Part shown: positions 553-63,998 of the stretch, in pieces
Layout: each line of letters opens with the position of its first letter
How positions within the stretch are numbered: the stretch's first letter is position 1
From: a virus
Taxonomy: Duplodnaviria; Caudoviricetes
IMG/VR virus record: IMGVR_UViG_3300027804_000001
Location: 269,613 to 333,612 of that record
Strand: one strand, 5' to 3'
DNA: 64,000 nt
The notes under the pieces: model-generated
Seen by the model: only the letters and a program-made list of their open reading frames with translations
The model's database searches: none
What the model was told of the DNA's origin: nothing
Translations under genes and position numbers: made by a program

Positions 553-1092
553 TTATGGAGCAAAACCACTATTAATTGTGATTGCTACAGTATCAGGTGA
601 AGTACTACCAATTGTTGTTGTATAAGTTGTTGCACTTCCAGATGAATTTGGACAAGTAGTTGTATTATCGGCGCCATTCATAACATAACTTTGTGCTGTT
701 GAGAAGGTTACTGTGTCCCCCTCCGTTAATCCTGTAATTGCACCTAAATCGGAACATATATTTTCATTAGTATTGTAGAAGTTGAAATTTCCACCACCAT
801 TTATATTGTATATAAGCATTATTGAACCACCGTTAACATCTTTAGCAAAAACACTCAAGGCTATTGTTGGTTTAGTCCAAGGTTGTGAGGTGGTACATGT
901 TCCTATACTTGCTACCGTCCCACCTGTTATGTTACTATTTGGAATTGTTACTTCATAACCCGCTTCTAATGTTGCTTTTGCAACACCAGATTCAATTAAT
1001 GTTGTAATACCTCCGCTAGTTGTTCCCGAGATGTCAAAAGGTCCGGTATCTGATCCGGCCCCTGAAACTGTGAAAATTACGTTATATGCCAT
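553..1092 (-). CDS. Small Gly/Thr-rich virion protein, paralogous to the terminal domains of 1157..3313
   Basis: ORF track; C-terminal ~100 aa aligns by eye with the C-terminus of the next ORF (Y.INGG...FYN...N..C...G.ITGL...D.VTF.T...Y.M.G). Confidence 0.7.
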   Translation of the reverse strand: MAYNVIFTVSGAGSDTGPFDISGTTSGGITTLIESGVAKATLEAGYEVTIPNSNITGGTVASIGTCTTSQPWTKPTIALSVFAKDVNGGSIMLIYNINGGGNFNFYNTNENICSDLGAITGLTEGDTVTFSTAQSYVMNGADNTTTCPNSSGSATTYTTTIGSTSPDTVAITINSGFAP

Positions 1093-1156
1093 TGTTTTTT
1101 ATTTTTATCTTTTTATATAAATATATCATTATTCAAAACAAATCTGTAGTTTATTT

Positions 1157-3313
1157 TTATGGTATGGCACCCGTGTCAATTCCTAAATAGACATAATCAT
1201 TACCAGAACTTATTCCTATGGTATGTACATAATTAACATTTCCACTAGGTGCGGTACAATTAGAACTAGAACCCGTCATTGAATACCCAATGTTGGTACC
1301 GAATGTAACTTGGTCGGACTGACTTAAACCTGTTATTTGTCCATAATAATCACAATTTCCATTTAATGGTCCATTATAAAAAGTATTATATGAACCACCA
1401 TTTATTTGATAGGTTATTTCAATTGAGTTGTATGAATTATCATAATCCTGTGCATTTACATAAAGTGTAACATAATTTGCAACACTTACTATTTCTGTTA
1501 CACCACTATTTGTAACACAACCATTCGCATCTGTTACCTCAACACAATATCCACCCGCACATAGAGTACCTACTGATTGTGTTGCTGTTGATTCAGTTAC
1601 TCCTGTTATTGTTGTCACCAACGTGCCTCCACATGTTGTATATGGTGCTGTTGAGTCGAGATATAATTTATAAGTTTTTGGCCATACACCACCAGTTGAA
1701 CTCATATCAAGAGTACCATTACAACCACCTGTATCATTTGCTGTAATCGTAATTGAAGCTGATTGTGCACTTGGTTGAGTTATTGTAACAGAAATTCCTT
1801 TTACTGCACCATTACTAGCTTTAACATTAAGGGTATAACCTGTTGCAATTAAACTACTAAATGTCTTAGGTAATGCAAAATAATTTACACCATCCAACGA
1901 TACCGTATAAGCTCCACCTGAACCACCTGATGCACTATTAACTGTTAATGAACCGTCTGAACCACCATTACATGATACATTTGTTTGTGTATAACTAGCA
2001 CTAATCTCAGTATAAGTTGGTGTCACCGTTGGTGTGAACGTCGGTGTTATTGTAAACGTCGGCGTTATTGTTGGTGTAATTGTATAAGTAGGTGTTATAG
2101 TTGGTGTAAACGTAGGCGTTATTGTTGGTGTAATAGTAAACGTAGGTGTAATAGTTGGTGTAATAGTTCTAGTTGGTGTAATGGTAAATGTTGGCGTTAT
2201 TGTAAACGTCGGTGTTATTGTAAACGTAGGTGTTATAGTTGGTGTAATTGTTTTAGTTGGAGTAATAGTTGGGGTAGGAGTTGGTGCAACATAAGTTGTA
2301 CTTACTGTGAAGTTACAAGCCGGTGTTGGTGTTGGTGTAATAGTAAATGTTGGTGTAATTGTTGGTGTAACAGTTCTAGTTGGTGTTAATGTAAACGTTG
2401 GTGTAATTGTATAAGTCGGAGTTATAGTTGGTGTAATAGTTGGTGTAAATGTAGGTGTGATAGTTGGTGTTATAGTTTGACTTACTGTTTGAGTAGGTGT
2501 AATAGTATAAGTTGGTGTAATAGTATAAGTTGGTGTAATAGTCTGACTTACAGTTTGTGTAGGTGTAATAGTATAAGTTGGTGTAATAGTTGGAGTAGGT
2601 GTAGGTGCCACATAAGCAGTGCTCACTGTGAAATCACAATCCGGAGTTAACGTTGGTGTAACTGTATAAGTTGGAGTAATAGTTGGTGTTATAGTATAAG
2701 TTGGTGTAATAGTAAATGTCGGTGTGATAGTAAACGTTGGGGTTACTGTTACTGTTGGAGTGATTGTAAGTGTAGGTGTAATAGTTGGTGATAACGTTTG
2801 TGTTGGTGTAATAGTATAAGTTGGTGTTATGGTATATGTAGGAGTAACTGTCGGTGTAGGTGTTGGTGCAACATAAGTTGCATTAACAACAAAGTCACAA
2901 GCCGGAGTTAACGTTGGTGTTATTGTATATGTTGGTGTTAAAGTTTGTGTGAACGTCGGTGTTATTGTAAACGTCGGCGTTATTGTATAAGTCGGTGTTA
3001 TTGTTGTTGTAGGTGTAATTGTGTATGTTGGTGTAACTGTTAACGTTGGTGTTAAAGTTGGTGTTGGGGTTGGTGCGTAGAATGTCTCATTAGTAAAACA
3101 TGATTCATTGTAAAGAATCACATTTACTGTACTATCAGGTACATAAACATCAACACCCGGATTTGTTGTTAAGTCGTTATAAGTAATTCCTGTTGCATTA
3201 TCATTTGTACTAACTCTTGTGGCATAATTAGATGGATTTACATCATCATAGTAAACCGAATATGGTCCTGGTGATGTTCCTCCTGTTATTAATATGTGAA
3301 AATATCTTGCCAT
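1157..3313 (-). CDS. Fibre/adhesin-like virion protein: N-domain, Thr-Pro stalk, two SprB-like repeats, C-terminal domain
   Basis: ~400 aa of TPT[YFL]T[IV] repeats; [28 protein letters not shown] resembles SprB repeat consensus. Confidence 0.65.
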
Positions 3314-6300
3314 TTATATTAATTATTATACCGTATTAAAACCTAATTCAACTTGATAGTAAGAATTCACATGATATAACGCATCATTTGTTGTAAACTC
3401 AATTCTCAATGTATGTACAGAGTTCGCCGCTAATAAGTATGGTGACGGTACTGTAAATGTTTTTATCACAGGTCCCATTGCACATCCCTGATTTAAATCT
3501 TGTGATGTTGCTCTGGCGATTTCTGTTCCATTTAATTTAAATTTAATGTTCTCAAAATTAGTATCTTGTAACTCCGCAAGACCACTAAAGTCTAAAGACA
3601 TATTCGTATTTTGTGGTCCAACTGTTATAGTTGCTTCCGCCCAACCAATTTGTGTTTGATTACAAGTTCCATTAGGACAATTTGACGAATTCGAAACATT
3701 AAATCTAACTGTTTGATTCAAGTTTGAAATTGCCCATCCAGCATTAATTCTATTTTGTGCTGAAACTGTTGGGTCAACATATAAACATTGTGAAAAACCT
3801 GTAACATTAGTATATGTCGTCCATGTTAATCCTGAAACAGGTAGTGGTGTTGGTGTTATTGTCATTGTTGGTGTAATAGTTGGTGTTGTTGTAACTGAAG
3901 GTACATACTCACTAAATGATGCCGCAAATGAACAATCAATTGTTGGAGTAATTGTTAATGTCGGTGTAATAGTTGGTGATACTGTTACTGTTGGTGTAAT
4001 AGTAAATGTTGGTGTTATTGTAAACGTTGGTGTAATTGTAGGAGTAGGAGTAGGTGCTACGTATGTCGTACTAACCGTGAAATCACAAGCCGGAGTTAAT
4101 GTTGGAGTAATTGTATAAGTTGGGGTAATAGTTGGTGAAACTGTTACTGTTGGCGTAATAGTATATGTTGGAGTAATTGTTAATGTCGGTGTGATTGTTA
4201 AAGTTGGTGTAATCGTCTGACTTACAGTTTGTGTAGGTGTAATAGTAAATGTTGGTGTAATTGTATAGGTTGGTGTAATAGTCGGTGTAATTGTATAAGT
4301 CGGAGTTATTGTATACGTTGGAGTTACGGTTGGTGTTGGGGTTGGTGCAACATAGGTTGTATCAACATTGAAATCACACGCTGGTGTCAATGTAGGTGTA
4401 ATTGTATAAGTTGGTGTAATAGTTGGTGTAACCGTTAATGTTGGTGTAATTGTTTGAGTTGGTGTAATAGTAAATGTTGGCGTTATTGTTAACGTCGGAG
4501 TAATAGTTGGTGATAATGTTTGTGTAGGTGTTATTGTATACGTTGGAGTAATTGTATAAGTCGGAGTTATAGTTGGTGTAATAGTAAACGTAGGTGTAAT
4601 AGTATAAGTTGGAGTAACTGTCGGTGTAGGTGTTGGTGCTACATATGTAGTAGTAACCGTAAATTCACAAGCCGGTGTTAGAGTTGGTGTAACTGTAAAT
4701 GTTGGGGTTATAGTTGGTGTAACAGTTAATGTAGGTGTAATTGTATAAGTTGGGGTAATAGTTGGTGTTGGTGTTATGGGTAAAATAACAACATTAACAC
4801 AATCACATTGTGGTGTAACTGAATTTACAGTAAATCCGCTAACACATTCACCAGGTAATAAACCCGCACCTATATTAAATCCGTGTGTATGGTCGTTGTA
4901 TGCAATTGTTTCTGTTCCATTAAATACGGTACCCAAGTCACCATACGCAGTACCCGAAACAATATAATCACAAATTGCATTTGCATTATCTGTTAAATCA
5001 GGATTATTGAATAATTGGATGTCAAAGTTTGAACATCCTAATAATCTAACTCTTAAGTATTGTGTTACAAATGGATCACATGTTTGTGTTGGTGTGATTG
5101 TATAAGTTGGGGTTACTGTAAACGTTGGTGTAACGGTTTGTGTTGGTGTAATTGTATATGTTGGAGTTACAGTTGGAGTAGGAGTTGGTGCAACATAGGT
5201 TGTGTCAACATTAAAATCACAAGCCGGTGTAAAAGTTGGTGTAATAGTCGGCGTAATTGTGAATGTTGGCGTTATAGTATAAGTTGGTGTTATAGTATAA
5301 GTTGGTGTTATAGTTGGTGTAATAGTATAAGTTGGTGTTATAGTATAAGTTGGAGTTACTGTTTCTGTTGGTGTAATAGTAAACGTTGGCGTTATTGTTA
5401 ACGTCGGAGTAATAGTGGGAGTTATACTTTGAGTTGGGGTAGGTGTAGGTGCAACATAAGTTGTACTAACTATAAATTGACAATCTGGTGTCAATGTTGG
5501 TGTGATAGTATAAGTTGGTGTTATAGTTGGTGTAAATGTTGGTGTTATTGTAAATGTAGGTGTAACAGTTTGTGTTGGTGTTATTGTTAACGTCGGAGTT
5601 AAAGTTGGGGTAATTGTATGAGTAGGTGTGACTGTTGGGGTAGGTGTTGGTGCAACATAAGTTGCATTAACAACAAAGTCACAAGCCGGAGTTAACGTTG
5701 GTGTTATTGTATATGTTGGTGTTAAAGTTTGTGTTATAGTAGGTGTTATTGTATAAGTTGGTGTAATAGTAAATGTTGGAGTAATGGTAAATGTAGGTGT
5801 TACTGTTGGTGTTGGTGTGGCCGCAACATAAGTTGTATCAACAATAAACTCACAATCAGGAGTTAACGTAGGTGTTATTGTATATGTTGGTGTTAAAGTT
5901 TGTGTGTAAGTTGGTGTAATTGTTGGTGTAACAGTGAATGTTGGTGTGATAGTTGGTGTAATAGTAAACGTAGGTGTTGGAGTTGGTGTCGGTGTCTCAG
6001 GACAATAAATTAATTTCCAACAATTTCCATCACATGGTGCGTATTCATATCCACTTGGGCAAGTATAACCAGATGAAAGATAATTACCATTTATATCTTT
6101 AATAACAGGAATTGTTTGACCAATAAAATCTGAAGATGAGAATATTACATTTAAATCATTTATTGATGTTGCACCAGTTAATTGAGGTAATGTGTTATCA
6201 TAAATTTCACAACCAAATGACGCAGGGTTTGTTTGATTACCTGTTAAATTATATCCATATAAACCAATAATGTGATCACCTGCCGTTAATGTTATTGGGT

Positions 6301-7080
6301 AAACGTGCCATGTTCTAAATTTCGATAATTCATTAAGACCTGAATTAGCAAACGTATCTAAAATAACATTACCATCAATCTCCAATCTAAATTCATTATC
6401 AGCACCAATACCGATATAGTAATCACCACCTGTTATACCTGTGATACAAACATTAAATCCTAACCAAGTTTGTAATGGATTATCCACGTTGTCATTTACA
6501 CCATCATTTGCCCACAAACCTGTTCTATTTAATGGTCCATTACCGGGGTTGAATATATTATAACCAGTTGTATTTTTCCATAAATCTGCGGTGTTTAGAT
6601 GTATCTCTTCTGTCCCTGTTCCGTTTATATTCCAACCTAATTGATAAACAGTTGTTCCACTCATACTATATTCAAAGTATGTTCTTCCACTTGCGGTGTA
6701 AGGTGTTGTTGGTGCGGTCGCGGAAACAATATCAATTGCCGTACAATAACCTCCATCTATTGGTGTCCATGTATATCCTGAAGGACAATCCACACAAGGA
6801 ATTGCTGTAGGTGTAATAGTATTTGTTGGTGTTATCGTTAACGTTGGTGTTACTGTTTCTGTTGGTGTAATTGTATAAGTCGGTGTAATAGTTTGAGTAT
6901 ACGTCGGAGTAATAGTTGGTGTTATCGTTAACGTTGGTGTTATAGTTTGTGTTAGTGTAAACGTCGGCGTTATTGTAAACGTCGGTGTAATAGTTGTTGT
7001 TGGTGTTATTGTATATGTTGGTGTAACAGTTAACGTAGGAGTTACTGTTGGAGTAATTGTAGGAGTTGGTGTTGGTGTTG
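2000..7080 (-). repeat. Coding Thr-Pro tandem repeats (TPT[YFLI]T[IV]) with CxFxV..TYVAPTP spacers, spanning two genes
   Basis: Directly visible (GTTGGTGT-rich on + strand) at ~2000-3075 and ~3840-7080; related tracts at 1-180 and 58670-59450. Confidence 0.95.
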
Positions 7081-10000
7081 GGTATGCAGAATTACAATCT
7101 CGATAAGGAGTTATTTCACAATCAACATAACCAGTTGTGTCTCTTTCACTTGATGTTTGTGTGATATCTTGACACAATCCACCATCATAATATTGAATAA
7201 TATATTCATCTAATGTTTTGAACTCGTCATAAACATGTTGTAATAATATTTGGTGATTTGAGTTACCATTAAATGCAATTAAATTTGTTGGTGTTGTTCC
7301 CGATAAATTTAAATTAAAATATAAATCAGATTCACAATACTCTAAATTAACTGAAATAACTTCAATAAGTCTACCACTTTCAGTGATTAAATAATCACCA
7401 TGTTCATAATAATCATTTGAATAATCACAACATGGTTCCTCTTGTATTGGTTTTATTTGTAAATGTTCAGGAAATCTTTCAGTAAAGAAAAATCTTTTTA
7501 AATCTATTACTTCATCTGTAGACTCGTCAACATACTTTCTCGTGTAAACTTTAACTTTTGTTGTTTGTAAAATTTCAAACACCTCAACATCTCCATCCTT
7601 AGTTGTACCTGTTATGTGATATTTTTTAATTGTTCCCAAACAATCTTTTGCGGTTACTTTTTTGGGTGTGTAATCAAAAACAAATGTGAAATCATCATTT
7701 GTTAAACCATCTACTAATGATTGATTTGATAATTCACTACAATCATTAAATGTTGCCGAAAGAATTGTATCACCTGAAACAATATCTTTTACATATGTTT
7801 TAGTATAACTTGTTAATGTTGTTTGACTACCACCTGTATATTTTAAAACATACGAATTACCACCCAATCCATAATTGAAAGAATTTCTATATTGGATTTT
7901 AGGTACTAATTTGTAAAGAACTTCATCATCAACCGGTGATGGTGTTAAACCACTATAACCAATCCATTGAATGTTTATACCTTCAAATTTTACTTTGGTG
8001 TCGCAGTTGGCTGCGTCGGTAAATAAGAAATCAATTTCATCTGTTTCTTTAACATTCGACACCACCCAAACACATTCGTATCCACCAGGAATATCCATAG
8101 TAGAACCATGAACCGTATAACCTGTTGTTTCATTTACACCATATTCACAATTTCTATATACAAATAACGGCCAATTCTTAACTCTATTTTTCTGAATTAT
8201 ATTGTTAGTATCTCCCGTGATTTTTATTTTTAAATCACCATTTAAAATACATTCAGGTCCATTAGGATAATTTATATCATCACCTGCAAATAGTCTATTT
8301 GGGTCTTCGTCGTCATCCGGGCAATCAAAAGAAAAATCAAGTTCTAATGTACAATCAGCAGGTGTTGTTGCACCGTTTGAAGCAACAAATCTGTAATCAA
8401 GATATTCTTCAACAGAACAATCATTTGGTCCGTACTTTATAGATGTGAATGTAACTTGTTCGATACCATTTTCATCTGTAAAAAATGAATAGGATATTTT
8501 TGGTTTTGGAACTTGGGTACATGTACTGCTACTTGTTGCTGCTGTATATGGTGCATATGTATCAATACAACCCGGAGTGTTCATTGTGTCTTCCGAATTG
8601 ATTGAATCGATTAAACCAATTAACGCATCAACCCATAAATCTTTAATTGCATTAACATCAGGTTCCAAATAATCTTTATAATCACATATTAATGGTAAAT
8701 GTGTTGATGAGGATGTCGTTCCTGTACAATTATCAATTGGAAATGAGTTAAATAATTTTGCGCTTACTCCTGGTATTGATGTGTTGCCACTCACAATAAC
8801 TTCAAATCCTGATTCAGGCCCACCATATTGAATACCATCAATTTCTATTAATGGATAATAAGTAACGCCAGTTGCATTAATTAAACCTCTAAAATAATTT
8901 TCATGATGACTACCTAATAATTTTTCAAAATCTTCTTCGATTGCCTCTTCAAAACTTGGATAAAGGCTTTCTGTAAAAGTCTTTGGTTGACAACCGTATC
9001 TATATTTGTATTTTGGTCTACCGAAAATATTATTTTCAATTAAATTACCACCAGTCCATAACGTTGTTGATGGTATAACTTGATCTAATACTTGAGTCCA
9101 ATATGGACTCATCTTATTGATAAATTCGTTTAAATCCGGTATAGTATATGGTACAAAATCAGTTGAACTTACATAATCTTGATAAATGTCTTCAAGTTTT
9201 ATGTAATTCTTTTTGTATTTGATAATGTGTGAGTTTTTAATTTGTGTACTCAACATTTTATCAACATATTCCGCAAATGTAACACCTGTTTGTGGTTCTA
9301 ATGTTGCACTACCAAATGATATCTCTAACTCTCTTGACTTTCTCCATATATCATAGTTGATAGCATTTGCAGAAGAAAGATACACTTCAATATTTTTTCT
9401 ATTGAATATAAATGAAGAATATTCGTCAGCTATTTGTCTTTGTCTGTTATCTAATTTACTAACAATTTCGTAACCAGTGTCTAAACCGGGTAAACTTCTA
9501 TAGATATCAAAATAATCTTCACCATAAGTAAAAGATTTATTTTTTGTTTTAATTGTTTTGGTTCTTCCCGTTAAATTAGACTTATCACCATCAATTATGT
9601 CTATTGATCTGTGATCTAATGTTATATCATACCAACCCGCACCTTTTTGGAAAAACGTGTTAGATGATTCGTCAAACGCCGTTTTTGGTATTTTAGTACC
9701 TTCAACAATTGGGTACGTTTCGGATGTGAAAGTTGTTGATGCCTTAGTTGAAGATATTGAATAGGTATAACCACTCGGAATAAATTCTGCAACATTGTAT
9801 GTTTTTGTTCCTGCAATAACATCATAGATATCACTATCTAAATCAAATGATTTTGGTAATGAGGTTATTTGATAAACAAATTCATTAATTTTAATCATTG
9901 GTTCAGGTGCACCTAAGAACTTTAAGAAAAATTCTATTGATGAACGTGTACCTTTTGATTTATATATGTGAGATAGATTAACTAATAATCTTCTATAAAA

Positions 10001-11311
10001 TTCGTTTTCTGCGTCAACAACGTTTTTACCAATTGTTAGACCGATATATTGTGTGTCTTGTCTTGTGTATAATAAATCTTCTAATTTATTTTCATCAAAT
10101 AAATTTACAGTAGATAAACCTAAGGTGTTTGATAAATTTTTTAATAATATATCGGGTAAGTTATTAATACCATCATAACTTACATTTCTCATGTAAGCAA
10201 TGTTTTCAATATATTTTTTTACTTTATCGAAACTATGTCCATATAATTGGAAAATCGCTTCAGCCTTCTTGTCATCAGTATCAAACTCAAATAACTGTGG
10301 AGAAGACATAAATCTAACAAATAAATTAGATTTATAATCATCTATTTCGTCAGCCAAATTTGATAATTGTTCGATATATAAATCATAATCAATACCAACA
10401 ATTTTAACGTTCCAATTATCTTTTGAAAGTGGCCATGTTACTTCAACATCACTAAGTACTGTGTTTGAACTATCTATACTATCTTTTGGTACACTAAATG
10501 TTGCGGTGTATTTTGGATTTGTATCTCTATCAATTAAACATTGTTCTAATTCATCTAAATTAGAAAAGAAGTCTTCAACCAAACCATTATTTGGTCTTAT
10601 TAATATGTTCTCACTATAATTTGTGTTAGTTCCAAATGGTTTACCCTTAACCTTTAATACGATTTTATAATCGGTACTAGGTTCGGTATAATTTATAATG
10701 TCATAAGTGATACCACTTATTTCTATAACATACTTTGTATATGAAGAATAAAAATTTCTTAATGTGTTTGTGGTGTTTGGGTCGACTTGACTATTTGGTG
10801 TTACAAATATTACATCGAGTGGATTGTATAATCTACCAAAGTCAACCTCGAATTGTGTGGTGTTTAAATTAATGTCATAAACAACATTATCTACAGTATA
10901 ATCTGATGACCTTACTGAACTGTTTTTATCAATTAAAACACCAGCCGGAAACTTTTCAATTATATTTCCTAATGTTGCACCAATTCTACTTTTTAATGAA
11001 CCAAATAATGATTTACCCGCATCATTTTTTGATGACCTAAATTTTACCTCTTTATTTTCATTTGAAGTACCATTTGGGTTATTTTGGTCATTTGACTTAT
11101 ATTTTTCTTCTTTTAAATCGTCTAAGGTTAGAAAATCAGAAAATTGTCCAGAACGAAATGTTTTCACATCTCTTTCAGGGATAGATCTGTCAATAGCGAA
11201 GTTAGTATTAGTCAATTGACTAGTACCATCGGTAATTTGTCTACCGACTAAACTATCACTAAACGTTTCAGACCCATTCGCCGCCTGACTTGGAACTTTT
11301 CTTCTTGCCAT
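3326..11311 (-). CDS. Giant baseplate wedge-like protein (gp7/P2 gpI-like N-region) fused to Thr-Pro stalks and PA14-like domain, 2661 aa
   Basis: YKSKGTRSSIEFFLKFLG matches the KGT motif of baseplate wedge proteins; lies in baseplate cluster; C-terminal half is repeats plus globular inserts. Confidence 0.6.
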   Translation of the reverse strand: MARRKVPSQAANGSETFSDSLVGRQITDGTSQLTNTNFAIDRSIPERDVKTFRSGQFSDFLTLDDLKEEKYKSNDQNNPNGTSNENKEVKFRSSKNDAGKSLFGSLKSRIGATLGNIIEKFPAGVLIDKNSSVRSSDYTVDNVVYDINLNTTQFEVDFGRLYNPLDVIFVTPNSQVDPNTTNTLRNFYSSYTKYVIEISGITYDIINYTEPSTDYKIVLKVKGKPFGTNTNYSENILIRPNNGLVEDFFSNLDELEQCLIDRDTNPKYTATFSVPKDSIDSSNTVLSDVEVTWPLSKDNWNVKIVGIDYDLYIEQLSNLADEIDDYKSNLFVRFMSSPQLFEFDTDDKKAEAIFQLYGHSFDKVKKYIENIAYMRNVSYDGINNLPDILLKNLSNTLGLSTVNLFDENKLEDLLYTRQDTQYIGLTIGKNVVDAENEFYRRLLVNLSHIYKSKGTRSSIEFFLKFLGAPEPMIKINEFVYQITSLPKSFDLDSDIYDVIAGTKTYNVAEFIPSGYTYSISSTKASTTFTSETYPIVEGTKIPKTAFDESSNTFFQKGAGWYDITLDHRSIDIIDGDKSNLTGRTKTIKTKNKSFTYGEDYFDIYRSLPGLDTGYEIVSKLDNRQRQIADEYSSFIFNRKNIEVYLSSANAINYDIWRKSRELEISFGSATLEPQTGVTFAEYVDKMLSTQIKNSHIIKYKKNYIKLEDIYQDYVSSTDFVPYTIPDLNEFINKMSPYWTQVLDQVIPSTTLWTGGNLIENNIFGRPKYKYRYGCQPKTFTESLYPSFEEAIEEDFEKLLGSHHENYFRGLINATGVTYYPLIEIDGIQYGGPESGFEVIVSGNTSIPGVSAKLFNSFPIDNCTGTTSSSTHLPLICDYKDYLEPDVNAIKDLWVDALIGLIDSINSEDTMNTPGCIDTYAPYTAATSSSTCTQVPKPKISYSFFTDENGIEQVTFTSIKYGPNDCSVEEYLDYRFVASNGATTPADCTLELDFSFDCPDDDEDPNRLFAGDDINYPNGPECILNGDLKIKITGDTNNIIQKNRVKNWPLFVYRNCEYGVNETTGYTVHGSTMDIPGGYECVWVVSNVKETDEIDFLFTDAANCDTKVKFEGINIQWIGYSGLTPSPVDDEVLYKLVPKIQYRNSFNYGLGGNSYVLKYTGGSQTTLTSYTKTYVKDIVSGDTILSATFNDCSELSNQSLVDGLTNDDFTFVFDYTPKKVTAKDCLGTIKKYHITGTTKDGDVEVFEILQTTKVKVYTRKYVDESTDEVIDLKRFFFTERFPEHLQIKPIQEEPCCDYSNDYYEHGDYLITESGRLIEVISVNLEYCESDLYFNLNLSGTTPTNLIAFNGNSNHQILLQHVYDEFKTLDEYIIQYYDGGLCQDITQTSSERDTTGYVDCEITPYRDCNSAYPTPTPTPTITPTVTPTLTVTPTYTITPTTTITPTFTITPTFTLTQTITPTLTITPTITPTYTQTITPTYTITPTETVTPTLTITPTNTITPTAIPCVDCPSGYTWTPIDGGYCTAIDIVSATAPTTPYTASGRTYFEYSMSGTTVYQLGWNINGTGTEEIHLNTADLWKNTTGYNIFNPGNGPLNRTGLWANDGVNDNVDNPLQTWLGFNVCITGITGGDYYIGIGADNEFRLEIDGNVILDTFANSGLNELSKFRTWHVYPITLTAGDHIIGLYGYNLTGNQTNPASFGCEIYDNTLPQLTGATSINDLNVIFSSSDFIGQTIPVIKDINGNYLSSGYTCPSGYEYAPCDGNCWKLIYCPETPTPTPTPTFTITPTITPTFTVTPTITPTYTQTLTPTYTITPTLTPDCEFIVDTTYVAATPTPTVTPTFTITPTFTITPTYTITPTITQTLTPTYTITPTLTPACDFVVNATYVAPTPTPTVTPTHTITPTLTPTLTITPTQTVTPTFTITPTFTPTITPTYTITPTLTPDCQFIVSTTYVAPTPTPTQSITPTITPTLTITPTFTITPTETVTPTYTITPTYTITPTITPTYTITPTYTITPTFTITPTITPTFTPACDFNVDTTYVAPTPTPTVTPTYTITPTQTVTPTFTVTPTYTITPTQTCDPFVTQYLRVRLLGCSNFDIQLFNNPDLTDNANAICDYIVSGTAYGDLGTVFNGTETIAYNDHTHGFNIGAGLLPGECVSGFTVNSVTPQCDCVNVVILPITPTPTITPTYTITPTLTVTPTITPTFTVTPTLTPACEFTVTTTYVAPTPTPTVTPTYTITPTFTITPTITPTYTITPTYTITPTQTLSPTITPTLTITPTFTITPTQTITPTLTVTPTITPTYTITPTLTPACDFNVDTTYVAPTPTPTVTPTYTITPTYTITPTITPTYTITPTFTITPTQTVSQTITPTLTITPTLTITPTYTITPTVTVSPTITPTYTITPTLTPACDFTVSTTYVAPTPTPTITPTFTITPTFTITPTVTVSPTITPTLTITPTIDCSFAASFSEYVPSVTTTPTITPTMTITPTPLPVSGLTWTTYTNVTGFSQCLYVDPTVSAQNRINAGWAISNLNQTVRFNVSNSSNCPNGTCNQTQIGWAEATITVGPQNTNMSLDFSGLAELQDTNFENIKFKLNGTEIARATSQDLNQGCAMGPVIKTFTVPSPYLLAANSVHTLRIEFTTNDALYHVNSYYQVELGFNTV

Positions 11312-12253: not shown

Positions 12254-13231
12254 TTATTGTTTCCTAACGTTAAAATATCCATTTCCATACACAGATAATT
12301 CTCCCATGTTATCGATTTCTCCTAATCTTAATGTTTTTTCCAAAACCCCTTGTTTTCCTCTCTCCACAAAAATGTCAGAATAAATTGTTGGGTCTTCAAC
12401 AAAACCCAAAAAATGTTCATTTCTGGTTATCATTTCATTTATGATTTCCTCTTTAGTAAATCCTGTGGTGTTTCCTGTAATAAGAGTTGTTCCATCCTCA
12501 TAATCTCTATAATAAACTGTGGTCGTTCCTGTTGTATTTCCCGTATATGTGAAACTATATCCCGTATAATTTCCAACATCATCTGTACCCGATGTTGTAC
12601 CTGAATAAGATGTTGATCCATATTTTCTTTTCTCTTCTATTCTACTACCACCAATACCCAAATAATTAAACGTTGTGTTTCCTGTTGGGGGATTAAATTC
12701 CTCATCAGATAAATAATTTTGTGTTCTACCACTTTCTAAATAATATTCTGTTGGTGTTATGTTATAATATGGTAAACTTGTACCTGTATATACGAATATA
12801 CCCAATGGGTCGGCTACCGAAATATCTTTTGGTATTGTTACTTGTTTACTTAATTTTTGTGTGGCCCAAGGAGCATCTAAAGTAATTGATATTGTATACC
12901 CACTTGATGTTGAGTATGTATGAGATATTGTTGGAAAGTTTGTTCCAACTACTCCACTATTAACAGTTAAACCTGATATGTTTCCATCCCCCCAATTAAT
13001 TGTAAATGTTTGTTCAACTATTTTTCTTAGTTTATCGGGATTAACAGTATTATATACTTGTATTGTACTTCCTGTTTGTGTATACGAAAAATTACATAGT
13101 TGTTCCACTTGTTCAATGTCACCATCAAACCCCACCATAACACCCATTTCATCAACCAAAGATTCTAAAAATATTGGTAGACTGTAAGTTGTACCTGTTT
13201 GTTTTAATATTTCGTATCTATTCTTATTCAT
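12254..13231 (-). CDS. Virion protein with PKD-like domain
   Basis: FTINWGDG...ISHTYSTSSGYTISITL is a PKD-type WGDG/H.Y signature. Confidence 0.55.
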   Translation of the reverse strand: MNKNRYEILKQTGTTYSLPIFLESLVDEMGVMVGFDGDIEQVEQLCNFSYTQTGSTIQVYNTVNPDKLRKIVEQTFTINWGDGNISGLTVNSGVVGTNFPTISHTYSTSSGYTISITLDAPWATQKLSKQVTIPKDISVADPLGIFVYTGTSLPYYNITPTEYYLESGRTQNYLSDEEFNPPTGNTTFNYLGIGGSRIEEKRKYGSTSYSGTTSGTDDVGNYTGYSFTYTGNTTGTTTVYYRDYEDGTTLITGNTTGFTKEEIINEMITRNEHFLGFVEDPTIYSDIFVERGKQGVLEKTLRLGEIDNMGELSVYGNGYFNVRKQ

Positions 13232-13238
13232 TTATAAA

Positions 13239-14081
13239 TTACTTTGTTGCCGTTCCGTCATTAAAATTGCAATCACTACAACCAATCTGATAAACATAAC
13301 CGTATTCTGTATCTTCTTTATTGATTTGAACACAGTAATACATATCATCACTCTCATTCACTTCATTTCCACCTGTTATACCTTTTTGAAAAAACAAAAT
13401 AGGATTCATAGATGTGCCGATTCTTTGAGATGGGTCTGTTCCTGATAGTGTTATCATGTTTTTATTTGTAAAATCCACAATAGACCCATCTTCCGCATTA
13501 AAAAATTTTGCGGTCATATAAAAAGTATTTCCTTTTAGTAACTCTTCACTAAAAACGGAATCATCTGCAAACCAAAACAAATACATGTTTTCTTTATTTC
13601 TGTAATTTGAACCCATAAAAACAGGTTTAAAAATGTAATCATTTAATGTTGTATAAAAATATTTTTCACCTAATGGTAATGCTAAGTTTTTAGTAAAAAC
13701 TAGTTTTCTATTAGATCTACTGGGTTCATCGTTGTTTGGTGTTTTGTAAAACTCAAGTCTAAAAAAACTTTCAGTAGTTTGTCTTAACATTTGTGCGTTT
13801 TCGTTAGCACTTAAACCAGTTGGTTCATAGTCTTGAACATATGTTGAACCGCTGATGAAATGAAATTTAAACCATATATCTGATTGTAATAAACCTAGAT
13901 TAGATGTGTAGGGTTTGTGAATATATCTTATTGTTTCATAATTTTGAGTGGGATTAATTATAGTTTTTAATGTTTCCTTTTCCATTTCCTCAGCATTATC
14001 CTGCCATCCAAGGTCAGTTTTGAAAACATCCTCAACATTTAAAATTATTTTTTGGTCAATATCTTTTCTTAATATTTTCAT
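13239..14081 (-). CDS. Hypothetical virion/baseplate-associated protein
   Basis: ORF track; start moved to ATG at 14081 (TAATG overlap with upstream stop). Confidence 0.6.
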   Translation of the reverse strand: MKILRKDIDQKIILNVEDVFKTDLGWQDNAEEMEKETLKTIINPTQNYETIRYIHKPYTSNLGLLQSDIWFKFHFISGSTYVQDYEPTGLSANENAQMLRQTTESFFRLEFYKTPNNDEPSRSNRKLVFTKNLALPLGEKYFYTTLNDYIFKPVFMGSNYRNKENMYLFWFADDSVFSEELLKGNTFYMTAKFFNAEDGSIVDFTNKNMITLSGTDPSQRIGTSMNPILFFQKGITGGNEVNESDDMYYCVQINKEDTEYGYVYQIGCSDCNFNDGTATK

Positions 14082-19689: not shown

Positions 19690-19745
19690 TCTTATAATAA
19701 ATAGAAACAATGAGATTTTCCATTTTAATATAAGAAAATTTTAAA

Positions 19746-23972: not shown

Positions 23973-23994
23973 ATTTCGTTAAAATTTTTACTAA

Positions 23995-24990: not shown

Positions 24991-25003
24991 ATCATTATTA
25001 ATT

Positions 25004-26386: not shown

Positions 26387-26400
26387 AAATTTATATAATT

Positions 26401-27859: not shown

Positions 27860-27879
27860 TAAAATTTATTATCATTATA

Positions 27880-28854: not shown

Positions 28855-28865
28855 AATATAAAATT

Positions 28866-28901
28866 TAAAAATGGGGACCATTGACGTTATCTACGGCCCC
28901 C
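28866..28901 (-). terminator. Hairpin/terminator between SSB and recombinase genes
   Basis: GGGGGCCGT..GAT-AAC-GTC..ATGGTCCCC followed by ATTTTT on minus strand (with wobble pairs). Confidence 0.55.
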
Positions 28902-28916
28902 TTTGTTTTTTACCAA

Positions 28917-30854: not shown

Positions 30855-30858
30855 GATA

Positions 30859-61411: not shown

Positions 61412-62311
61412 TTAATAAATTATTTGTACATTATCTTCTGTTAACAAATCTTCGTTTATTTCTGTTAAAACACCATTTGTAATTAAACCAATCACATCAT
61501 CTTCACAATCTGCACCACATATATAAAAGTCAAAATCATTTAATTTTGTTAAGAAGTTATTTCTAATCTGAATGAAATCTAATGGTTGTTCAGTATAAGT
61601 TACTTCTAATATGTTGAACTGTGTTTCTCCTGTGTGAATGTTCAAATAACCCGTAGTTCCTCCTCCCCATGTTTGAATTAGATTTTTTTCTGAACCTCTT
61701 TTAGTGGGTATTACCTCTTCCCAATCTTCTAATTTATAAATTGGTCTTCCGTTTAGGTATATTTTTAAAACACCTAATCTTCTATATCTTTCATTTGACC
61801 ACTTTTTATTTAAAAATTCATCTTCACTTTCATAGGTCATTAATTGTGTAGATGTTACCGCACTAACTTCAGTATCTTGATATTCGTTAATCTGCCAACC
61901 TAACATGTCGTTTTTACCACCACTATTCTTTAAATCACAACCACTATATTTTTTATATCTGTCGAATACTATTGTTACATTAAAATCTTTATTTGCATCT
62001 GTTGTACATAATTGGGGTGTTTGTCCTGAAGAAATGTAATATAATTCCGTATAACCTGTTGCGGTCTCACAAACACCCGAATATCTATATGCTTCCCATT
62101 TTATTCTACCGTCATCGGTAAATGAAAATGATAAGTTATTATCGGCAAATTTCCTTTGTTCGGTTTCACCACTGATTCCCCAATAATAAAAGGTACTACC
62201 ATCTGACCATGAATTACCATCTCTATTAAAAACAAAATCCAGTGTCCATCCTTTTTCAGTTCTTGTTCTGATATAAGGGGTACCCGATTCTAAAATATAT
62301 GTTGTTGCCAT
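61412..62311 (-). CDS. Hypothetical virion protein, possibly LamG/ConA-like fold
   Basis: WTLDFVF...VTIVFDR...LKIYLNG pattern; fibre cluster. Confidence 0.5.
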   Translation of the reverse strand: MATTYILESGTPYIRTRTEKGWTLDFVFNRDGNSWSDGSTFYYWGISGETEQRKFADNNLSFSFTDDGRIKWEAYRYSGVCETATGYTELYYISSGQTPQLCTTDANKDFNVTIVFDRYKKYSGCDLKNSGGKNDMLGWQINEYQDTEVSAVTSTQLMTYESEDEFLNKKWSNERYRRLGVLKIYLNGRPIYKLEDWEEVIPTKRGSEKNLIQTWGGGTTGYLNIHTGETQFNILEVTYTEQPLDFIQIRNNFLTKLNDFDFYICGADCEDDVIGLITNGVLTEINEDLLTEDNVQIIY

Positions 62312-62336
62312 TATCTATAAATAGTTATTTTTTTTA

Positions 62337-63998
62337 TTATGATAATTTTATATAACCATAACTAATTGTTTGTGATGTTCCACTATTGTTTGTTATACCA
62401 AACCTAAATACATTTGAAGTATTTGGTGCGTATGATGTTGGTGTATTTGAAATACTACCATTTGTTCCCGTAATTTGGTCAGGCATTGCAGTTAAAACTA
62501 ATGCATTACCTGCTGTGTAATACCAACCATATTGAGAACCAACTACCGGAACATTGTTATTTGATGTTGTTACAGTTGCGTTCCAAGTTATAATACCATT
62601 TGGAATATTACCATTTACCCACATTGTATATGAAGCACCGGCTTCTACTGTAAAACTTTGTGTAGACGCACCGGTCGGTACTGTCCATGTTCCTGTCGTT
62701 TTTGTTAGAACATTACCACCTGTACCTGTAACATTCAAGTTGCCACCAACTGTAACATTGCCAGTTGTGGTCATTGTGTCAAGAGCGTTGAGGGCAAAGA
62801 TTGCGTTCATTGCTTTGACATAGGCACTACTACCTACACCCAAAGTTGTTGTAATACCACCTGCTTGAACGCCCAATACTCTGATTTTTACCGTTTGATT
62901 GGTTGAGGGAGTATAAACTAACTTGCTGATTATGTTGAAGTTTTGCTGTGCATAATTATAGTTGTAACTGTATGCTGTGGCAAATGATCCACTATCACCG
63001 TCCAATGCGGTGTTGGTAGTGGCATCAACCCAGTCATACTGCACATATGGATCATTATTACTTCCACTAAAACTCCAATTTGGAGTAAATGACAACTCGT
63101 AAGTTGTGCCAGCAGTCAGTGTATAAACACCAGTGCTGGTATTGTATGACACTGAACTACCCACAGATTTGTCTGTGGTGTTTAATATAATGTCAGTATT
63201 GGTAGTGACACTTTGACCGCTACCTGTTCTTGTGGTTGCTATGTAGTTTGTAGCAACCGTGCCAGTAGCAGTAGATTGAATTGCTATGGTGGGATTGACC
63301 TGTGTAATTTCAATACTTGCATATGCACTACTAACAGTAATTGTATTTACAGTAGTTTGTCTTAATTCGTATGTAGTATTAACCGATGGAGTTACATAAT
63401 GAGTTGCTATACCGGTTGATGCCACACCGGCACCACTTGTTGTTAGTTCACCAAATGCTTCAATACCAACATAGGTACTATTTGTAACATCATACCACCT
63501 AAATGTTCCCCAACTACTAGTTGATGTAAATCTTCTAATAATAGCTTCCAATTTATAGGTATTACCTGCGGTTAGTGTTACTTGTGTATTTGAACCTTTT
63601 GTAATTAAAGAACCATTTGATGCACTTGTTGTTTGAAAACTTATTGCAGTTCCATTTCCAACACCAGTTTGTTCAGCGTTATTTTGTGCTAGTAAATAAC
63701 TACCATTAGCCACACCATAAGTTGTTGGCTGACCGTTTACAATTACATTATCAAATGAACCTGTTGGAGCCGTTAAAGTTGTTCCACTATATGTTAAACC
63801 TGATTGAACGGTTGCGTTTGTTCCTGAACCATTATATGTTATTAAACCACCGGCTGTTGAACCTGTTAGTGTTACTAAACCTGATGTTCCGCTAGTACCA
63901 CTTGTTCCCGCCGTTCCCGATGAACCACTAGTTCCGCTTGATCCGCTAGAACCTGATGTTCCTGATGTTCCGCTAGTACCACTTGTTCCCGCCGTTCC
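62337..63998 (-). CDS. Tail fibre-like protein with GTS collagen-like repeats and C1q/TNF-like domains; 5' end beyond window
   Basis: Frame is open from 63998 through the ORF-track GTG at 63713 (GTAGTSGTSG...); YNTSTGVYTLTAGTTYELSF resembles C1q-like motif. Confidence 0.75.
   Translation of the reverse strand, partial: GTAGTSGTSGTSGTSGSSGSSGTSGSSGTAGTSGTSGTSGLVTLTGSTAGGLITYNGSGTNATVQSGLTYSGTTLTAPTGSFDNVIVNGQPTTYGVANGSYLLAQNNAEQTGVGNGTAISFQTTSASNGSLITKGSNTQVTLTAGNTYKLEAIIRRFTSTSSWGTFRWYDVTNSTYVGIEAFGELTTSGAGVASTGIATHYVTPSVNTTYELRQTTVNTITVSSAYASIEITQVNPTIAIQSTATGTVATNYIATTRTGSGQSVTTNTDIILNTTDKSVGSSVSYNTSTGVYTLTAGTTYELSFTPNWSFSGSNNDPYVQYDWVDATTNTALDGDSGSFATAYSYNYNYAQQNFNIISKLVYTPSTNQTVKIRVLGVQAGGITTTLGVGSSAYVKAMNAIFALNALDTMTTTGNVTVGGNLNVTGTGGNVLTKTTGTWTVPTGASTQSFTVEAGASYTMWVNGNIPNGIITWNATVTTSNNNVPVVGSQYGWYYTAGNALVLTAMPDQITGTNGSISNTPTSYAPNTSNVFRFGITNNSGTSQTISYGYIKLS

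What the first reader, a model, noticed from the sequence alone, without database searches (positions are those of the whole stretch)
553..63998. [S/T]-G-x-T motif saturates virion proteins but not replication enzymes: candidate virion glycosylation sequon
Seen: manual counts of [ST]GxT give 11 in the 325-aa PKD protein (12254..13231), 9 in 14081..15838 (585 aa), about 21 in the non-repeat part of the 2661-aa protein and 8 in the sheath. Replication enzymes give 0 in DnaB, 0 in NrdA, 0 in SNF2, 1 in RecA (its Walker A) and 2 in PolB (965 aa). The motif occurs in unrelated folds (sheath, wedge, hub, neck, fibres), so it is not one repeated domain. Established: some mycobacteriophages glycosylate capsid/tail proteins with phage-encoded glycosyltransferases, and Bacteroidota have general O-glycosylation (D-[ST] sequon, which differs from this one). 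Inference: [ST]GxT is the recognition site of a post-translational modification, probably O-glycosylation, coating the whole particle together with the mucin-like Thr-Pro stalks.
Basis: partly seen in the sequence, partly recalled or inferred. Interest (0 to 1): 0.82.

Follow-up and report, generated by a model that had tools for sequence, protein, structure and literature searches.

The report
Thr-Gly motif on outer phage proteins
A four-residue motif, [Ser/Thr]-Gly-x-Thr, is really and specifically over-represented in the exposed, fast-evolving parts of about a dozen outer virion proteins of a large group of uncultured aquatic jumbo phages; it looks like a tag read by a modifying enzyme, possibly a sugar-adding one, but no modification has been shown.

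Summary
OBSERVATION CONFIRMED.
- Eight window proteins hold 73 [ST]GxT. Composition predicts about 12, and shuffling within 10-residue blocks gives 14.1±3.7.
- A blind scan of all 8,000 a-b-x-c patterns ranks SGxT first outside the Thr-Pro repeats. In the complete 310-kb relative G001, SGxT and TGxT rank first and second in the whole proteome.

WHAT THE MOTIF IS.
- It is sharply defined: hydrophobic-[ST]-G-(not Pro)-T. Near-equivalents ([ND]GxT, [ST]GxS, [ST]Gx[VI], the reverse) sit at 0.7-1.5x, against 7.5x for the motif.
- In relatives, 11-13 proteins carry it at roughly 7-9x. The other ~260-310 ORFs sit at 1.1-1.3x.
- It lies in variable regions. Conserved sheath ends, tube, gp6-like wedge and mucin-like repeats lack it.
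- Sites turn over (37-56 alignment columns per family) while density stays near 10 per protein.
- T4, two cyanophages, a Flavobacterium phage and a 484-kb phage show none (0.8-1.8x).
- 117 diverse sheaths show 3.6x in the middle region and 0.67x in the conserved ends.

INTERPRETATION. Relatives encode soluble GT2-type glycosyltransferases and sugar-nucleotide enzymes. A modification sequon, probably for glycosylation, is the best reading (about 0.4) but unproven. A lineage-specific structural strand-edge motif remains a serious rival. "Coats the whole particle" is overstated.

First-stage readers flagged the same motif in several other genomes of this scan.

The parts
12254..13231 (-). 325-aa outer baseplate protein containing a PKD-like beta-sandwich. 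It has 11 [ST]GxT sites, at aa 12, 53, 86, 110, 167, 183, 210, 230, 234, 252 and 256.
   Evidence: 11 sites against 1.1 expected; homologues have a median of 10, and sites 183 and 252 are kept in 36 of 37; residues ~46-135 match PKD domains at fold level (TM-score by target 0.62-0.69). Pfam gives no PKD hit.
14081..15838 (-). 585-aa outer baseplate protein in the gp8 position. The family is restricted to this phage group. It has 9 sites, at aa 138, 141, 177, 203, 257, 279, 349, 397 and 431.
   Evidence: 9 sites against 0.6 expected; homologues carry 3-17 sites, spread over 49 alignment columns; no match in GenBank phages.
3326..11311 (-). 2661-aa giant fibre or adhesin with about 780 aa of Thr-Pro repeat. 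It has 21 sites, essentially all outside the repeat.
   Evidence: Orthologues carry 19 (G002), 13 (G001) and 20-21 (L140, L142, L150) sites.
15838..19710 (-). 1290-aa baseplate protein in the gp7 position, with 5 sites.
   Evidence: 5 sites against 1.3 expected. Orthologues carry 11 in G001 and G002 but only 0-1 in L140 and L142, so the count varies strongly by lineage.
13239..14087 (-). 282-aa baseplate protein with 1 site in the window and 1-14 in homologues.
   Evidence: Across loci its count correlates with that of the neighbouring 585-aa protein (rho 0.74).
31109..36955 (-). 1948-aa tail or baseplate protein of unknown family, with 10 sites.
   Evidence: 10 sites against 1.2 expected. G002 has 14 against 1.9 and G001 has 3 against 1.1.
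37265..41986 (-). 1573-aa tail protein with 5 poorly conserved sites. The enrichment is borderline.
   Evidence: 5 sites against 1.3 expected; sites are kept in 0-11 of 19 homologues.
45686..48538 (-). Tail sheath, 950 aa. It has 8 sites (aa 125, 144, 163, 269, 278, 306, 592, 652), all in the variable middle region.
   Evidence: only aa ~1-70 and 741-949 align to T4 gp18; conserved ends 0 against 0.19 expected, middle 8 against 1.16; across the clade, 7.4 sites per sequence in aa 101-350 and none in the conserved blocks.
61412..62311 (-). 299-aa virion-module protein of unknown family, with 4 sites.
   Evidence: 4 sites against 0.4 expected. Orthologues carry 5 in both G001 and G002.
19746..21578 (-). 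Contrast: gp6-like baseplate wedge, 610 aa, 0 sites.
   Evidence: phrog_219 and phrog_6; 0 against 0.4 expected; 38 homologues have a median of 0.
44904..45392 (-). Contrast: tail tube, an inner protein, 0 sites.
62337..63713 (-). Contrast: Ser/Thr/Gly-rich collagen-like fibre with 0 sites against 2.5 expected.
22194..30887 (-). Contrast: replication and nucleotide-metabolism block (NrdA, NrdB, DnaB, exonuclease, UvsX/RecA-like, SSB and others). It has 4 sites in all, two of them in Walker A loops.

Best explanation
Phi-[Ser/Thr]-Gly-(not Pro)-Thr is a short linear motif kept under selection on the exposed, fast-evolving domains of about a dozen outer virion proteins. These are the sheath outer domains, the gp7-to-gp12-position baseplate block, the giant fibres and, in relatives, the capsid insertion. 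The phages form a broad group of uncultured, low-GC, T4-like jumbo phages. The most likely mechanism is that the motif is the recognition site (sequon) of a phage-encoded, soluble, cytoplasmic protein-modifying enzyme that decorates assembled or folding virion proteins. This is most plausibly an O-glycosyltransferase fed by the phage's own sugar-nucleotide genes.

SHOWN: the motif's enrichment, specificity, restriction to certain proteins and regions, evolutionary turnover and phylogenetic breadth, and the glycosyltransferase-rich genomes of relatives.

INFERRED: that the regions are surface-exposed, that an enzyme reads the motif, and that the modification is a glycan.
For: 1. SPECIFICITY. 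[ST]GxT is at 7.5x, and 14x with I/L/V/F before it. By contrast [ND]GxT is at 1.45x, [ST]GxS 1.5x, [ST]Gx[VI] 0.72x, [ST][ND]xT 0.88x and the reverse motif 1.05x. Over 262 site columns there is never a Pro at x, and position -1 is hydrophobic in 56% against 34% background. The flanks are otherwise at background.
2. BIMODAL DISTRIBUTION. In G001, 11 ORFs hold 94 sites against 10.7 expected, and the other 308 hold 37 against 29.4. In G002, 13 ORFs hold 120 sites, and the rest hold 61 against 55.9.
3. LINEAGE-SPECIFIC. T4 1.07 and 1.47, Mel-JY01 0.83, Flavobacterium phage immuto 1.78, LR756508 1.46 and P-RSM6 1.37. Their sheaths carry 0-2 sites.
4. LOCATION. All sheath sites lie in the variable middle. 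Across 117 diverse sheaths the middle is at 3.57x and the conserved ends at 0.67x. The four sites of the G002 capsid protein all lie in the segment that does not align to the T4 gp23 core.
5. EVOLUTION. S and T interchange at position 1 while G and T stay fixed. There are 37-56 site columns per family, only 1-3 of them near-universal, yet about 10 sites per sequence. Control motifs occupy 6-23 columns. Back-to-back sites at spacing 3-4 are about 3x over random placement.
6. ENZYMES. All five long relatives have 3-9 GT2 matches. A G002 cluster holds an epimerase/dehydratase, UDP-GlcNAc 2-epimerase, two FkbM methyltransferases and at least four GT2-type genes. Three GT-like genes are shared by G001 and G002, one of them in the head-gene region. 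None has a transmembrane-like segment.
7. The rich proteins share no sequence homology, and the codons at the sites vary.
Against: - No chemical evidence of any modification exists, and there is no cultured relative.
- No known glycosyltransferase is reported to use this sequon (one search found nothing).
- GT41 and GT61 were not found in five relatives. The O-FucT search was uninformative because its control also rang nowhere.
- Glycosyltransferase clusters in jumbo phages can serve DNA modification or other glycans instead.
- The shared head-region GT2-like gene is a weak Pfam hit without a DxD motif.
- The mucin-like Thr-Pro regions and several S/T-rich fibres lack the motif, so the glycan genes may target those instead.
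- In a distant relative the motif is part of a periodic fibre repeat, SGGT-x-SG-x-T-NF.
- Some sites coincide with structural glycines of a PKD-like fold.
- When sites are lost, replacements are turn- or strand-compatible residues: N/D at positions 1-2 and V/I at position 4.
- Exposure is inferred from variability and domain homology, not measured. The AlphaFold models were poor (pLDDT 44 and 52).
Confidence: 0.42

Rival explanations
1. This is a lineage-specific structural motif. On this reading [ST]-G-x-T is a preferred way to end or start beta-strands (a tight hairpin, beta-bulge or ST-turn with a Thr at the strand start) in the beta-sandwich and fibre domains that decorate these phages. 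It would be propagated by descent and convergent selection for foldability, with no enzyme involved.
For: - In the AlphaFold models, sites in the better-predicted regions sit at strand ends or in short hairpin loops. Examples are 53 (a two-residue hairpin, T|GS|T), 203, 230/234, 110 and 210.
- Position -1 is hydrophobic, as at the end of a buried strand.
- Replacements at lost sites are N/D at positions 1-2 and V/I at position 4.
- A distant relative's fibre (P0151) carries 19 sites in a periodic repeat.
- Site 110 sits in the segment (HTY...SGYT) that resembles the conserved PKD sequence signature, inside the PKD-like domain seen at fold level. The match to the PKD core glycine is from memory.
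Against: - The structural near-equivalents [ND]GxT, [ST]Gx[VI] and [ST][ND]xT are not enriched.
- Homologous and analogous beta-rich virion proteins of T4, cyanophages and a Flavobacterium phage lack the enrichment.
- Beta-rich inner virion proteins of the same phage also lack it.
- Sites appear at 37-56 different columns per family with high turnover.
- Back-to-back motifs are favoured, which does not fit two consecutive tight turns.
- Local structural contexts in the models are heterogeneous: hairpin, mid-strand, loop and short helix.
Confidence: 0.3
2. The motif is a recognition site for something other than a glycosyltransferase. Candidates are another post-translational modification (phosphorylation, sulfation, hydroxylation-linked chemistry), an assembly chaperone, or a surface element that weakly binds host or environmental polysaccharide.
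For: All the evidence for a selected, exposed linear motif is agnostic about what reads it. Unchecked notes on the same genome mention clusters with sulfotransferase-like, 2OG-oxygenase and radical-SAM genes.
Against: No kinase or other specific enzyme was identified here. The only enzyme class verified in relatives is glycan-related. A four-residue ligand-binding element has no precedent that I know of.
Confidence: 0.15
3. The signal is an artefact of chance, composition, hidden paralogy, or a DNA-level signal read in frame.
For: The rich proteins are Ser/Thr/Gly-richer than the enzymes, and the enzymes' low counts are largely compositional.
Against: - Global and 10-residue-block shuffles both exclude it: 73 sites against 14.1±3.7.
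- The blind scan of 8,000 patterns ranks it top.
- It is replicated in two whole genomes and in 150 sheath cluster representatives.
- Codons are diverse.
- BLAST finds no similarity among the rich proteins.
- The most S/T-rich proteins are depleted: 1 site against 11.9 expected in a 5472-aa ORF of G002.
Confidence: 0.02

Closest known systems
Mycobacteriophage virion O-glycosylation (Che8, Corndog, Myrna; Freeman et al. 2023, as cited in PMC12619734)
   Same: Phage-encoded glycosyltransferases are thought to decorate virion proteins made in the cytoplasm. The glycan genes lie in or near the structural region.
   Different: In mycobacteriophages the glycans sit on C-terminal tails of the capsid and tail-tube subunits (PMC12619734), and I know of no defined sequon there. 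Here the tube has no site. The motif is a discrete tetrapeptide dispersed through folded outer domains of many proteins, and no glycan has been demonstrated.
N-x-S/T sequons and glycan-shield turnover on eukaryotic virus glycoproteins; cytoplasmic N-glycosyltransferases of the HMW1C type (my own knowledge)
   Same: Both are short sequons with a 'no proline' middle position and a hydroxyl residue two places on. Sites are gained and lost at many positions while density is maintained on exposed variable regions.
   Different: N-x-[ST] itself is not enriched here (119 vs 113). No GT41 homologue was found in relatives. The acceptor here would be Ser/Thr, not Asn.
Bacteroidota general O-glycosylation, sequon D-[ST]-[AILVMT]
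   Same: It is a three-residue O-glycosylation sequon on folded proteins. It occurs in a phylum that may include the hosts of related aquatic jumbo phages (PMC12619734).
   Different: That sequon is not enriched here (27 vs 36.1). The system acts in the periplasm, whereas tailed-phage virions assemble in the cytoplasm.
O-glycosylation of folded EGF and TSR repeats by POFUT, POGLUT and EOGT (my own knowledge)
   Same: A short consensus containing Gly and Ser/Thr is read on a folded beta-rich domain by soluble glycosyltransferases.
   Different: Those sequons are framed by cysteines. GT61 was not found in relatives and the O-FucT search was uninformative. They belong to the eukaryotic secretory pathway.
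Generic beta-hairpin and ST-turn sequence preferences; periodic phage tail-fibre repeats
   Same: Gly follows a small polar residue at a strand end and Thr starts the next strand. A distant relative has the motif in a periodic fibre repeat.
   Different: The usual alternatives (N/D before Gly, V/I after) are not enriched. The motif is absent from comparable proteins of other phages. There is no periodicity or repeat homology in the window's proteins.

Membership tests
Phage virion O-glycosylation (mycobacteriophage type) | Phage-encoded glycosyltransferases in the genome | tested here: met
   Met only in relatives. GT2 matches occur in 5 of 5 long contigs, and G002 has a glycan cluster. There is none in the window itself. 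The window's own genome is not held. An unchecked note reports a 35-kb glycan cluster upstream.
Phage virion O-glycosylation (mycobacteriophage type) | Acceptor sites on C-terminal tails of the capsid and tail-tube subunits | tested here: not met
   The tail tube has 0 sites. Sites are internal and dispersed. The sites of the G002 capsid protein lie in an internal insertion.
Phage virion O-glycosylation (mycobacteriophage type) | Glycan on virion proteins shown chemically (mass spectrometry or glycostain) | not testable with these tools
   There is no cultured relative.
Bacteroidota general O-glycosylation | Use or enrichment of D-[ST]-[AILVMT] | tested here: not met
   27 observed against 36.1 expected in the motif-rich proteins.
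N-glycosylation (PglB or cytoplasmic NGT) | Enrichment of N-x-[ST], and a GT41 NGT homologue | tested here: not met
   119 observed against 113 expected. PF13844 is absent from five relatives.
Protein O-glycosyltransferases acting on folded domains (GT41 OGT, GT61 EOGT, O-FucT) | A homologue encoded by the phage | tested here: inconclusive
   There are no matches in five relatives. However, the O-FucT search rang in no control genome, and divergent enzymes could be missed.
Generic beta-turn or ST-turn motif | Structurally equivalent residues ([ND] at position 1, [ND] at position 2, [VI] at position 4) used interchangeably and also enriched | tested here: not met
   The ratios are 1.45, 0.88 and 0.72 against 7.5 for the exact motif.
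Generic beta-turn or ST-turn motif | Present in comparable beta-rich virion proteins of other phages | tested here: not met
   Controls run at 0.8-1.8x. The five-residue form runs at 0.5-2.0x, against 4.7-6.4x here.
Generic beta-turn or ST-turn motif | One common local backbone geometry at the sites | tested here: inconclusive
   The models have pLDDT 44 and 52. In the better regions, sites sit at strand ends, in hairpin loops, mid-strand, in a loop or in a short helix.
Periodic phage fibre repeat or shared paralogous domain | Regular spacing, or detectable homology between motif-bearing segments | tested here: not met
   There are no BLAST hits among the rich proteins apart from the Thr-Pro repeats, and spacing is irregular. 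The feature is met only in the distant relative's fibre P0151.
   There is no Pfam hit even at E<=5. Even so, the ~90-residue confident part of the model matches PKD domains with TM-score by target 0.62-0.69.

The most novel reading that the evidence does not exclude
A broad group of uncultured aquatic jumbo phages uses a true O-glycosylation sequon, Phi-[ST]-G-x-T, read by phage-encoded soluble glycosyltransferases on folded outer virion domains. This gives the particle a glycan coat whose sites turn over like the glycan shields of animal viruses. It would be the first sequon-directed protein glycosylation system described for a bacteriophage.
Probability: 0.33. Interest if true: 0.88.

Novelty: new variant of a known kind. 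Interest (0 to 1): 0.68.

Why it matters
If the motif is a modification sequon, it would show that phages can target glycans, or another group, to defined sites on many structurally unrelated virion proteins.
- It would supply a simple sequence rule for predicting which proteins and domains are exposed on uncultured phage particles.
- It would point to a new enzyme-sequon pair of possible use in glycoengineering.
- It would suggest that an arms race over particle surfaces (receptor masking, protection from proteases or grazers, adhesion) shapes phage structural proteins.

Even if the motif is structural, being the most over-represented gapped tripeptide of a 310-kb proteome while confined to outer domains makes it a useful marker of exposed virion regions. 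It would also be an unexplained folding preference.

Tried and rejected
- COMPOSITION OR CHANCE. Rejected by global and block shuffles and by blind pattern scans.
- DNA-LEVEL MOTIF. Rejected, because six Ser codons, three Thr codons and two main Gly codons are used.
- SHARED DOMAIN OR PARALOGY. Rejected by all-against-all BLAST and by the absence of Pfam or PHROG families in the rich proteins.
- GENERAL PROPERTY OF VIRION PROTEINS. Rejected by five control phages.
- KNOWN SEQUONS. N-x-S/T and D-[ST]-Phi are not enriched.
- A SUBLINEAGE THAT LOST THE MOTIF OR SWITCHED TO A VARIANT. The lowest-count loci (L140, L142, L150) are still enriched (3-6 against ~0.4, and 20-21 against 3.5-5.0 in the giant fibre). 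No alternative motif emerged.
It then gave low-confidence models (pLDDT 44 and 52), so solvent exposure could not be measured.
- OTHER STRUCTURE OR FOLD LOOK-UPS. The PDB profile search of the 585-aa family found nothing. The ESM Atlas holds no model of it.
- LITERATURE. Searches for SGXT/TGXT sequons or glycosylated sheath proteins found nothing relevant. The Freeman 2023 paper is not held.
- ENZYME FAMILIES. GT41, GT61 and O-FucT were not found in relatives.
- WINDOW'S OWN GENOME. No whole genome is held for the window, so its own glycosyltransferases could not be checked.
- I ran no enzyme-substrate complex prediction, because no specific pair is claimed.

Full report
WHAT THE WINDOW IS

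The window is almost entirely minus-strand genes of an uncultured, low-GC (about 31%) T4-like phage. PHROG and PDB matches identify these parts:
- a tail sheath (45686-48538), tube, hub, gp6-like and gp25-like wedge proteins and a gp13-like neck protein;
- a block with NrdA, NrdB, DnaB, an exonuclease, a UvsX-like protein and SSB;
- an SNF2-type helicase and PolB.

The large proteins downstream of the gp6-like gene (15838-19710, 14081-15838, 13239-14087, 12254-13231, 11311-12228, 3326-11311) occupy the positions of T4 gp7 to gp12. They have no Pfam or PHROG family. No whole genome is held for the window. IMG/VR holds hundreds of relatives, with contigs up to 310 kb. I assembled two of them from 20-kb pieces for genome-wide tests: G002 (288 kb, CheckV 92% complete) and G001 (310 kb, with direct terminal repeats).

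- Composition-preserving shuffles give z-scores of 10-11 for the 325-aa and 585-aa proteins. They give 6-8 for the giant fibre, the 1948-aa protein and the sheath.
- Shuffling only within 10-residue blocks keeps every Ser, Gly and Thr in its own neighbourhood. Even so, the eight rich proteins hold 73 sites against 14.1±3.7, with a maximum of 25 in 500 shuffles.
- The motif was picked by eye, so I scanned all 8,000 patterns of the form a-b-x-c. In the window's virion set, SGxT (51 vs 10.4) is the strongest pattern not produced by the Thr-Pro repeats.
- In the whole proteome of the complete relative G001, SGxT and TGxT are the first and second most over-represented patterns of all.
- The sites use many different codons, so the signal is at the protein level.

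THE MOTIF IS SHARPLY DEFINED

In the rich proteins, with Thr-Pro repeats masked, [ST]GxT is 7.5-fold over expectation. With I, L, V or F in front it is 14-fold over. The chemically or structurally nearest variants are not enriched:
- [ND]GxT 1.45
- [ST]GxS 1.51
- [ST]Gx[VI] 0.72
- [ST][ND]xT 0.88
- [ST]AxT 0.97
- the reversed motif 1.05

I also made a profile over 262 distinct site columns from five protein families.
- Position -1 is hydrophobic or aromatic in 56% of cases, against a 34% background.
- There is never a proline at x.
- There is a slight hydrophobic preference at +4 and a polar one at +5.
- All other flanking positions are at background.

So the unit is compact: Phi-[ST]-G-{P}-T.

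WHICH PROTEINS CARRY IT

The claim that the motif saturates virion proteins is too broad.
- The gp6-like wedge, the gp25-like proteins, tube, hub, neck protein, 11311-12228, 42032-43912 and 48821-50113 have 0-1 site.
- Several Ser/Thr-rich fibres are at or below expectation (1157-3313, 57987-59522, 59500-61398; 62337-63713 has 0 against 2.5).
- The contrast with enzymes inside the window is partly compositional: 6 sites against 1.6 expected.

The genome-wide picture in relatives is clean and bimodal.
- In G001, 11 ORFs hold 94 sites against 10.7 expected, and the other 308 ORFs hold 37 against 29.4.
- In G002, 13 ORFs hold 120 sites, and the remaining 262 hold 61 against 55.9.
- The rich sets are the orthologues of the window's rich proteins plus further fibre genes. 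In G002 they also include the major capsid protein.
- A 5472-aa mucin-like ORF of G002 has 1 site against 11.9 expected.

NOT A GENERAL FEATURE OF PHAGE PARTICLES

Structural regions of unrelated myoviruses give these observed/expected ratios:
- T4: 1.07 and 1.47
- Microcystis phage Mel-JY01: 0.83
- Flavobacterium phage immuto: 1.78
- the 484-kb uncultured phage LR756508: 1.46
- cyanophage P-RSM6: 1.37

Their sheaths carry 0-2 sites. For the five-residue form the controls give 0.5-2.0. The window gives 6.4, G001 6.1 and G002 4.7, counted over all proteins.

WHERE IN THE PROTEINS

- Only residues ~1-70 and 741-949 of the sheath align to T4 gp18 and other solved sheaths. All eight sites lie between them: middle 8 against 1.16 expected, ends 0 against 0.19.
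- Across 61 clade homologues, residues 101-350 are the least conserved part and carry 7.4 sites per sequence. The conserved blocks carry none.
- I searched 1.84 billion cluster representatives with the sheath and took 117 full-length sheaths. They are 33-73% identical to the query and are representatives of 50%-identity clusters. The first 70 plus last 210 residues hold 17 sites against 25.3 expected. The middle holds 385 against 107.8.
- From established knowledge of gp18, the conserved N- and C-terminal parts form the inner sheath and the inserted domains face outward. I therefore infer that the sites are exposed. I did not measure this.
- The four sites of the G002 capsid protein all fall in residues 105-340, the segment that does not align to the T4 gp23 core.
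- In the other families the flanks of the sites are less conserved than the protein average, for example 0.33 against 0.56. In the three best-sampled families (325-aa, 585-aa and sheath), the motif Thr is more conserved than Thr elsewhere in the protein; motif Gly is not.

HOW IT EVOLVES

- At well-kept sites Ser and Thr interchange freely at position 1 (for example T23/S21 and T24/S22), while Gly and the final Thr are held.
- Each family shows the motif at 37-56 different alignment columns. Only 1-3 of these are near-universal, yet each sequence keeps about 10 sites.
- Control motifs of the same composition occupy 6-23 columns at 0.3-2.3 per sequence.
- Counts per homologue range from 3 to 17. 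Across loci they correlate between the two neighbouring proteins 13239-14087 and 14081-15838 (rho 0.74).
- Back-to-back sites at spacings of 3 and 4 residues occur 9 and 11 times, against about 3.5 expected.
- No sublineage has lost the motif or replaced it with a variant.

BREADTH

The enrichment in sheaths persists down to about 35-40% identity. Ratios are 2.5-4.6 for ranks 2-125 and 1.6 for ranks 126-150. The reverse motif and [ND]GxT stay near 1.

I looked at two distant carriers.
- In L206 the sheath has 14 sites against 2.1 expected. A neighbouring partial fibre has 19 against 1.7, there as a periodic repeat of the type SGGT-x-SG-x-T-NF.
- In L207, from a 275-kb contig, only the 1832-aa sheath is enriched. 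The capsid, portal and terminase genes have none.

STRUCTURE

Two AlphaFold models were of low confidence, with mean pLDDT 44 and 52. In the better regions the sites sit as follows:
- the last residue of a strand followed by a 2-5-residue hairpin loop (sites 53, 203, 230/234);
- a loop-to-strand junction (110, 210);
- inside a strand (86);
- a strand end (252);
- a loop (256, 257);
- a short helix (279).

The sites therefore lie mostly at strand edges, but without one common geometry.

The confident ~90 residues of the 325-aa protein match PKD domains at fold level.

ENZYMES

- The window encodes no recognisable glycosyltransferase.
- All five long relatives have 3-9 GT2-family matches.
- G002 has a cluster at 153-166 kb, about 20 kb beyond the fibre genes. 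It holds an NAD-dependent epimerase/dehydratase, UDP-GlcNAc 2-epimerase, two FkbM methyltransferases and at least four GT2-type genes.
- Three GT-like genes are shared by the divergent G001 and G002. One is a 259-aa weak GT2 match about 10 kb from the capsid gene. That gene has no relative in GenBank phages.
- None of the GT-like ORFs has a transmembrane-like segment, as a cytoplasmic enzyme would require.
- GT41 and GT61 were not found. The O-FucT search was uninformative, because its control also rang nowhere.
- An unchecked first-stage note on this same genome reports a 35-kb glycan gene cluster 26.8 kb before the window. This matches the gene order seen in G002.

INTERPRETATION

The reading I favour, at about 0.42, is a trans-acting reader, that is a modification sequon. 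Four properties point to it:
- exact residue specificity;
- restriction to a discrete set of outer proteins and to their variable parts;
- absence from comparable proteins of other phages;
- continual creation of new sites while density is maintained.

Glycosylation is the most plausible modification, given the gene content of relatives. The nearest precedent is mycobacteriophage virion glycosylation (cited in PMC12619734). That system differs in using C-terminal tails and, to my knowledge, no sequon.

The main rival, at about 0.30, is a lineage-specific structural strand-edge motif. It is supported by:
- the hydrophobic residue at -1;
- the positions of sites at strand ends in the models;
- turn-compatible substitutions at lost sites;
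- the periodic fibre repeat in L206.

It explains the lineage restriction, the lack of enrichment of equivalent residues and the turnover less well.

Another kind of reader or modification is possible (about 0.15). Artefact is excluded (about 0.02). About 0.1 remains unassigned.

First-stage readers flagged the same motif in several other genomes of this scan. No follow-up is recorded in the notes returned. I treat those notes as leads only.

Noticed in passing
G002 (L180-L181), genome coordinates 107949-124367 (+): A single 5472-aa ORF made largely of Thr-Pro-Asn-type repeats sits next to the fibre genes. It is strongly depleted in [ST]GxT (1 site against 11.9 expected), so the mucin-like stalks and the tetrapeptide motif are mutually exclusive.
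   Followed up: partly
G001 genome coordinates 44783-48754 and 50785-53637, versus window 54605-57502 and 50647-52392: The PolB and SNF2-helicase orthologues of the complete relative are much longer than in the window (1323 against 965 aa, and 950 against 581 aa). BLAST alignments cover only part of them. This suggests inteins or other insertions in the relative.
   Followed up: no
window 59500-61398 and 62337-63998: Two fibre genes have collagen triple-helix repeats (Pfam PF01391). The neighbouring gene 57987-59522 has a LamG/concanavalin-like lectin domain (PF13385). None of the three is enriched in the motif.
   Followed up: partly
window 1-8000: GC skew is strongly positive here (+0.17 to +0.28) and negative over the rest of the window. 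This coincides with the Thr-Pro repeat genes on the minus strand, so it is probably a codon-composition effect and not a replication signal.
   Followed up: no
window 19746-30887: Ribonucleotide reductase, DnaB, an exonuclease, a UvsX-like protein and SSB genes lie directly between the baseplate wedge genes and further tail genes, all on one strand. Structural and replication modules are interleaved, unlike in T4.
   Followed up: no
L206:12226-13278 (+), protein P0151: A partial fibre of a distant relative consists of ~45-residue repeats built around SGGT-[IV]-SG-[ND]-T-NF. It has 19 motif sites in 351 aa and no Pfam family. It could be a good model for solving the local structure of the motif.
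   Followed up: partly
G002 genome coordinates 41219-41998 (-) and G001 31847-32638 (-): A ~260-aa weak GT2-like gene lies about 10 kb from the capsid gene. It lacks a DxD motif and is conserved at 62% identity between two divergent relatives. It has no match in GenBank phages.
   Followed up: partly
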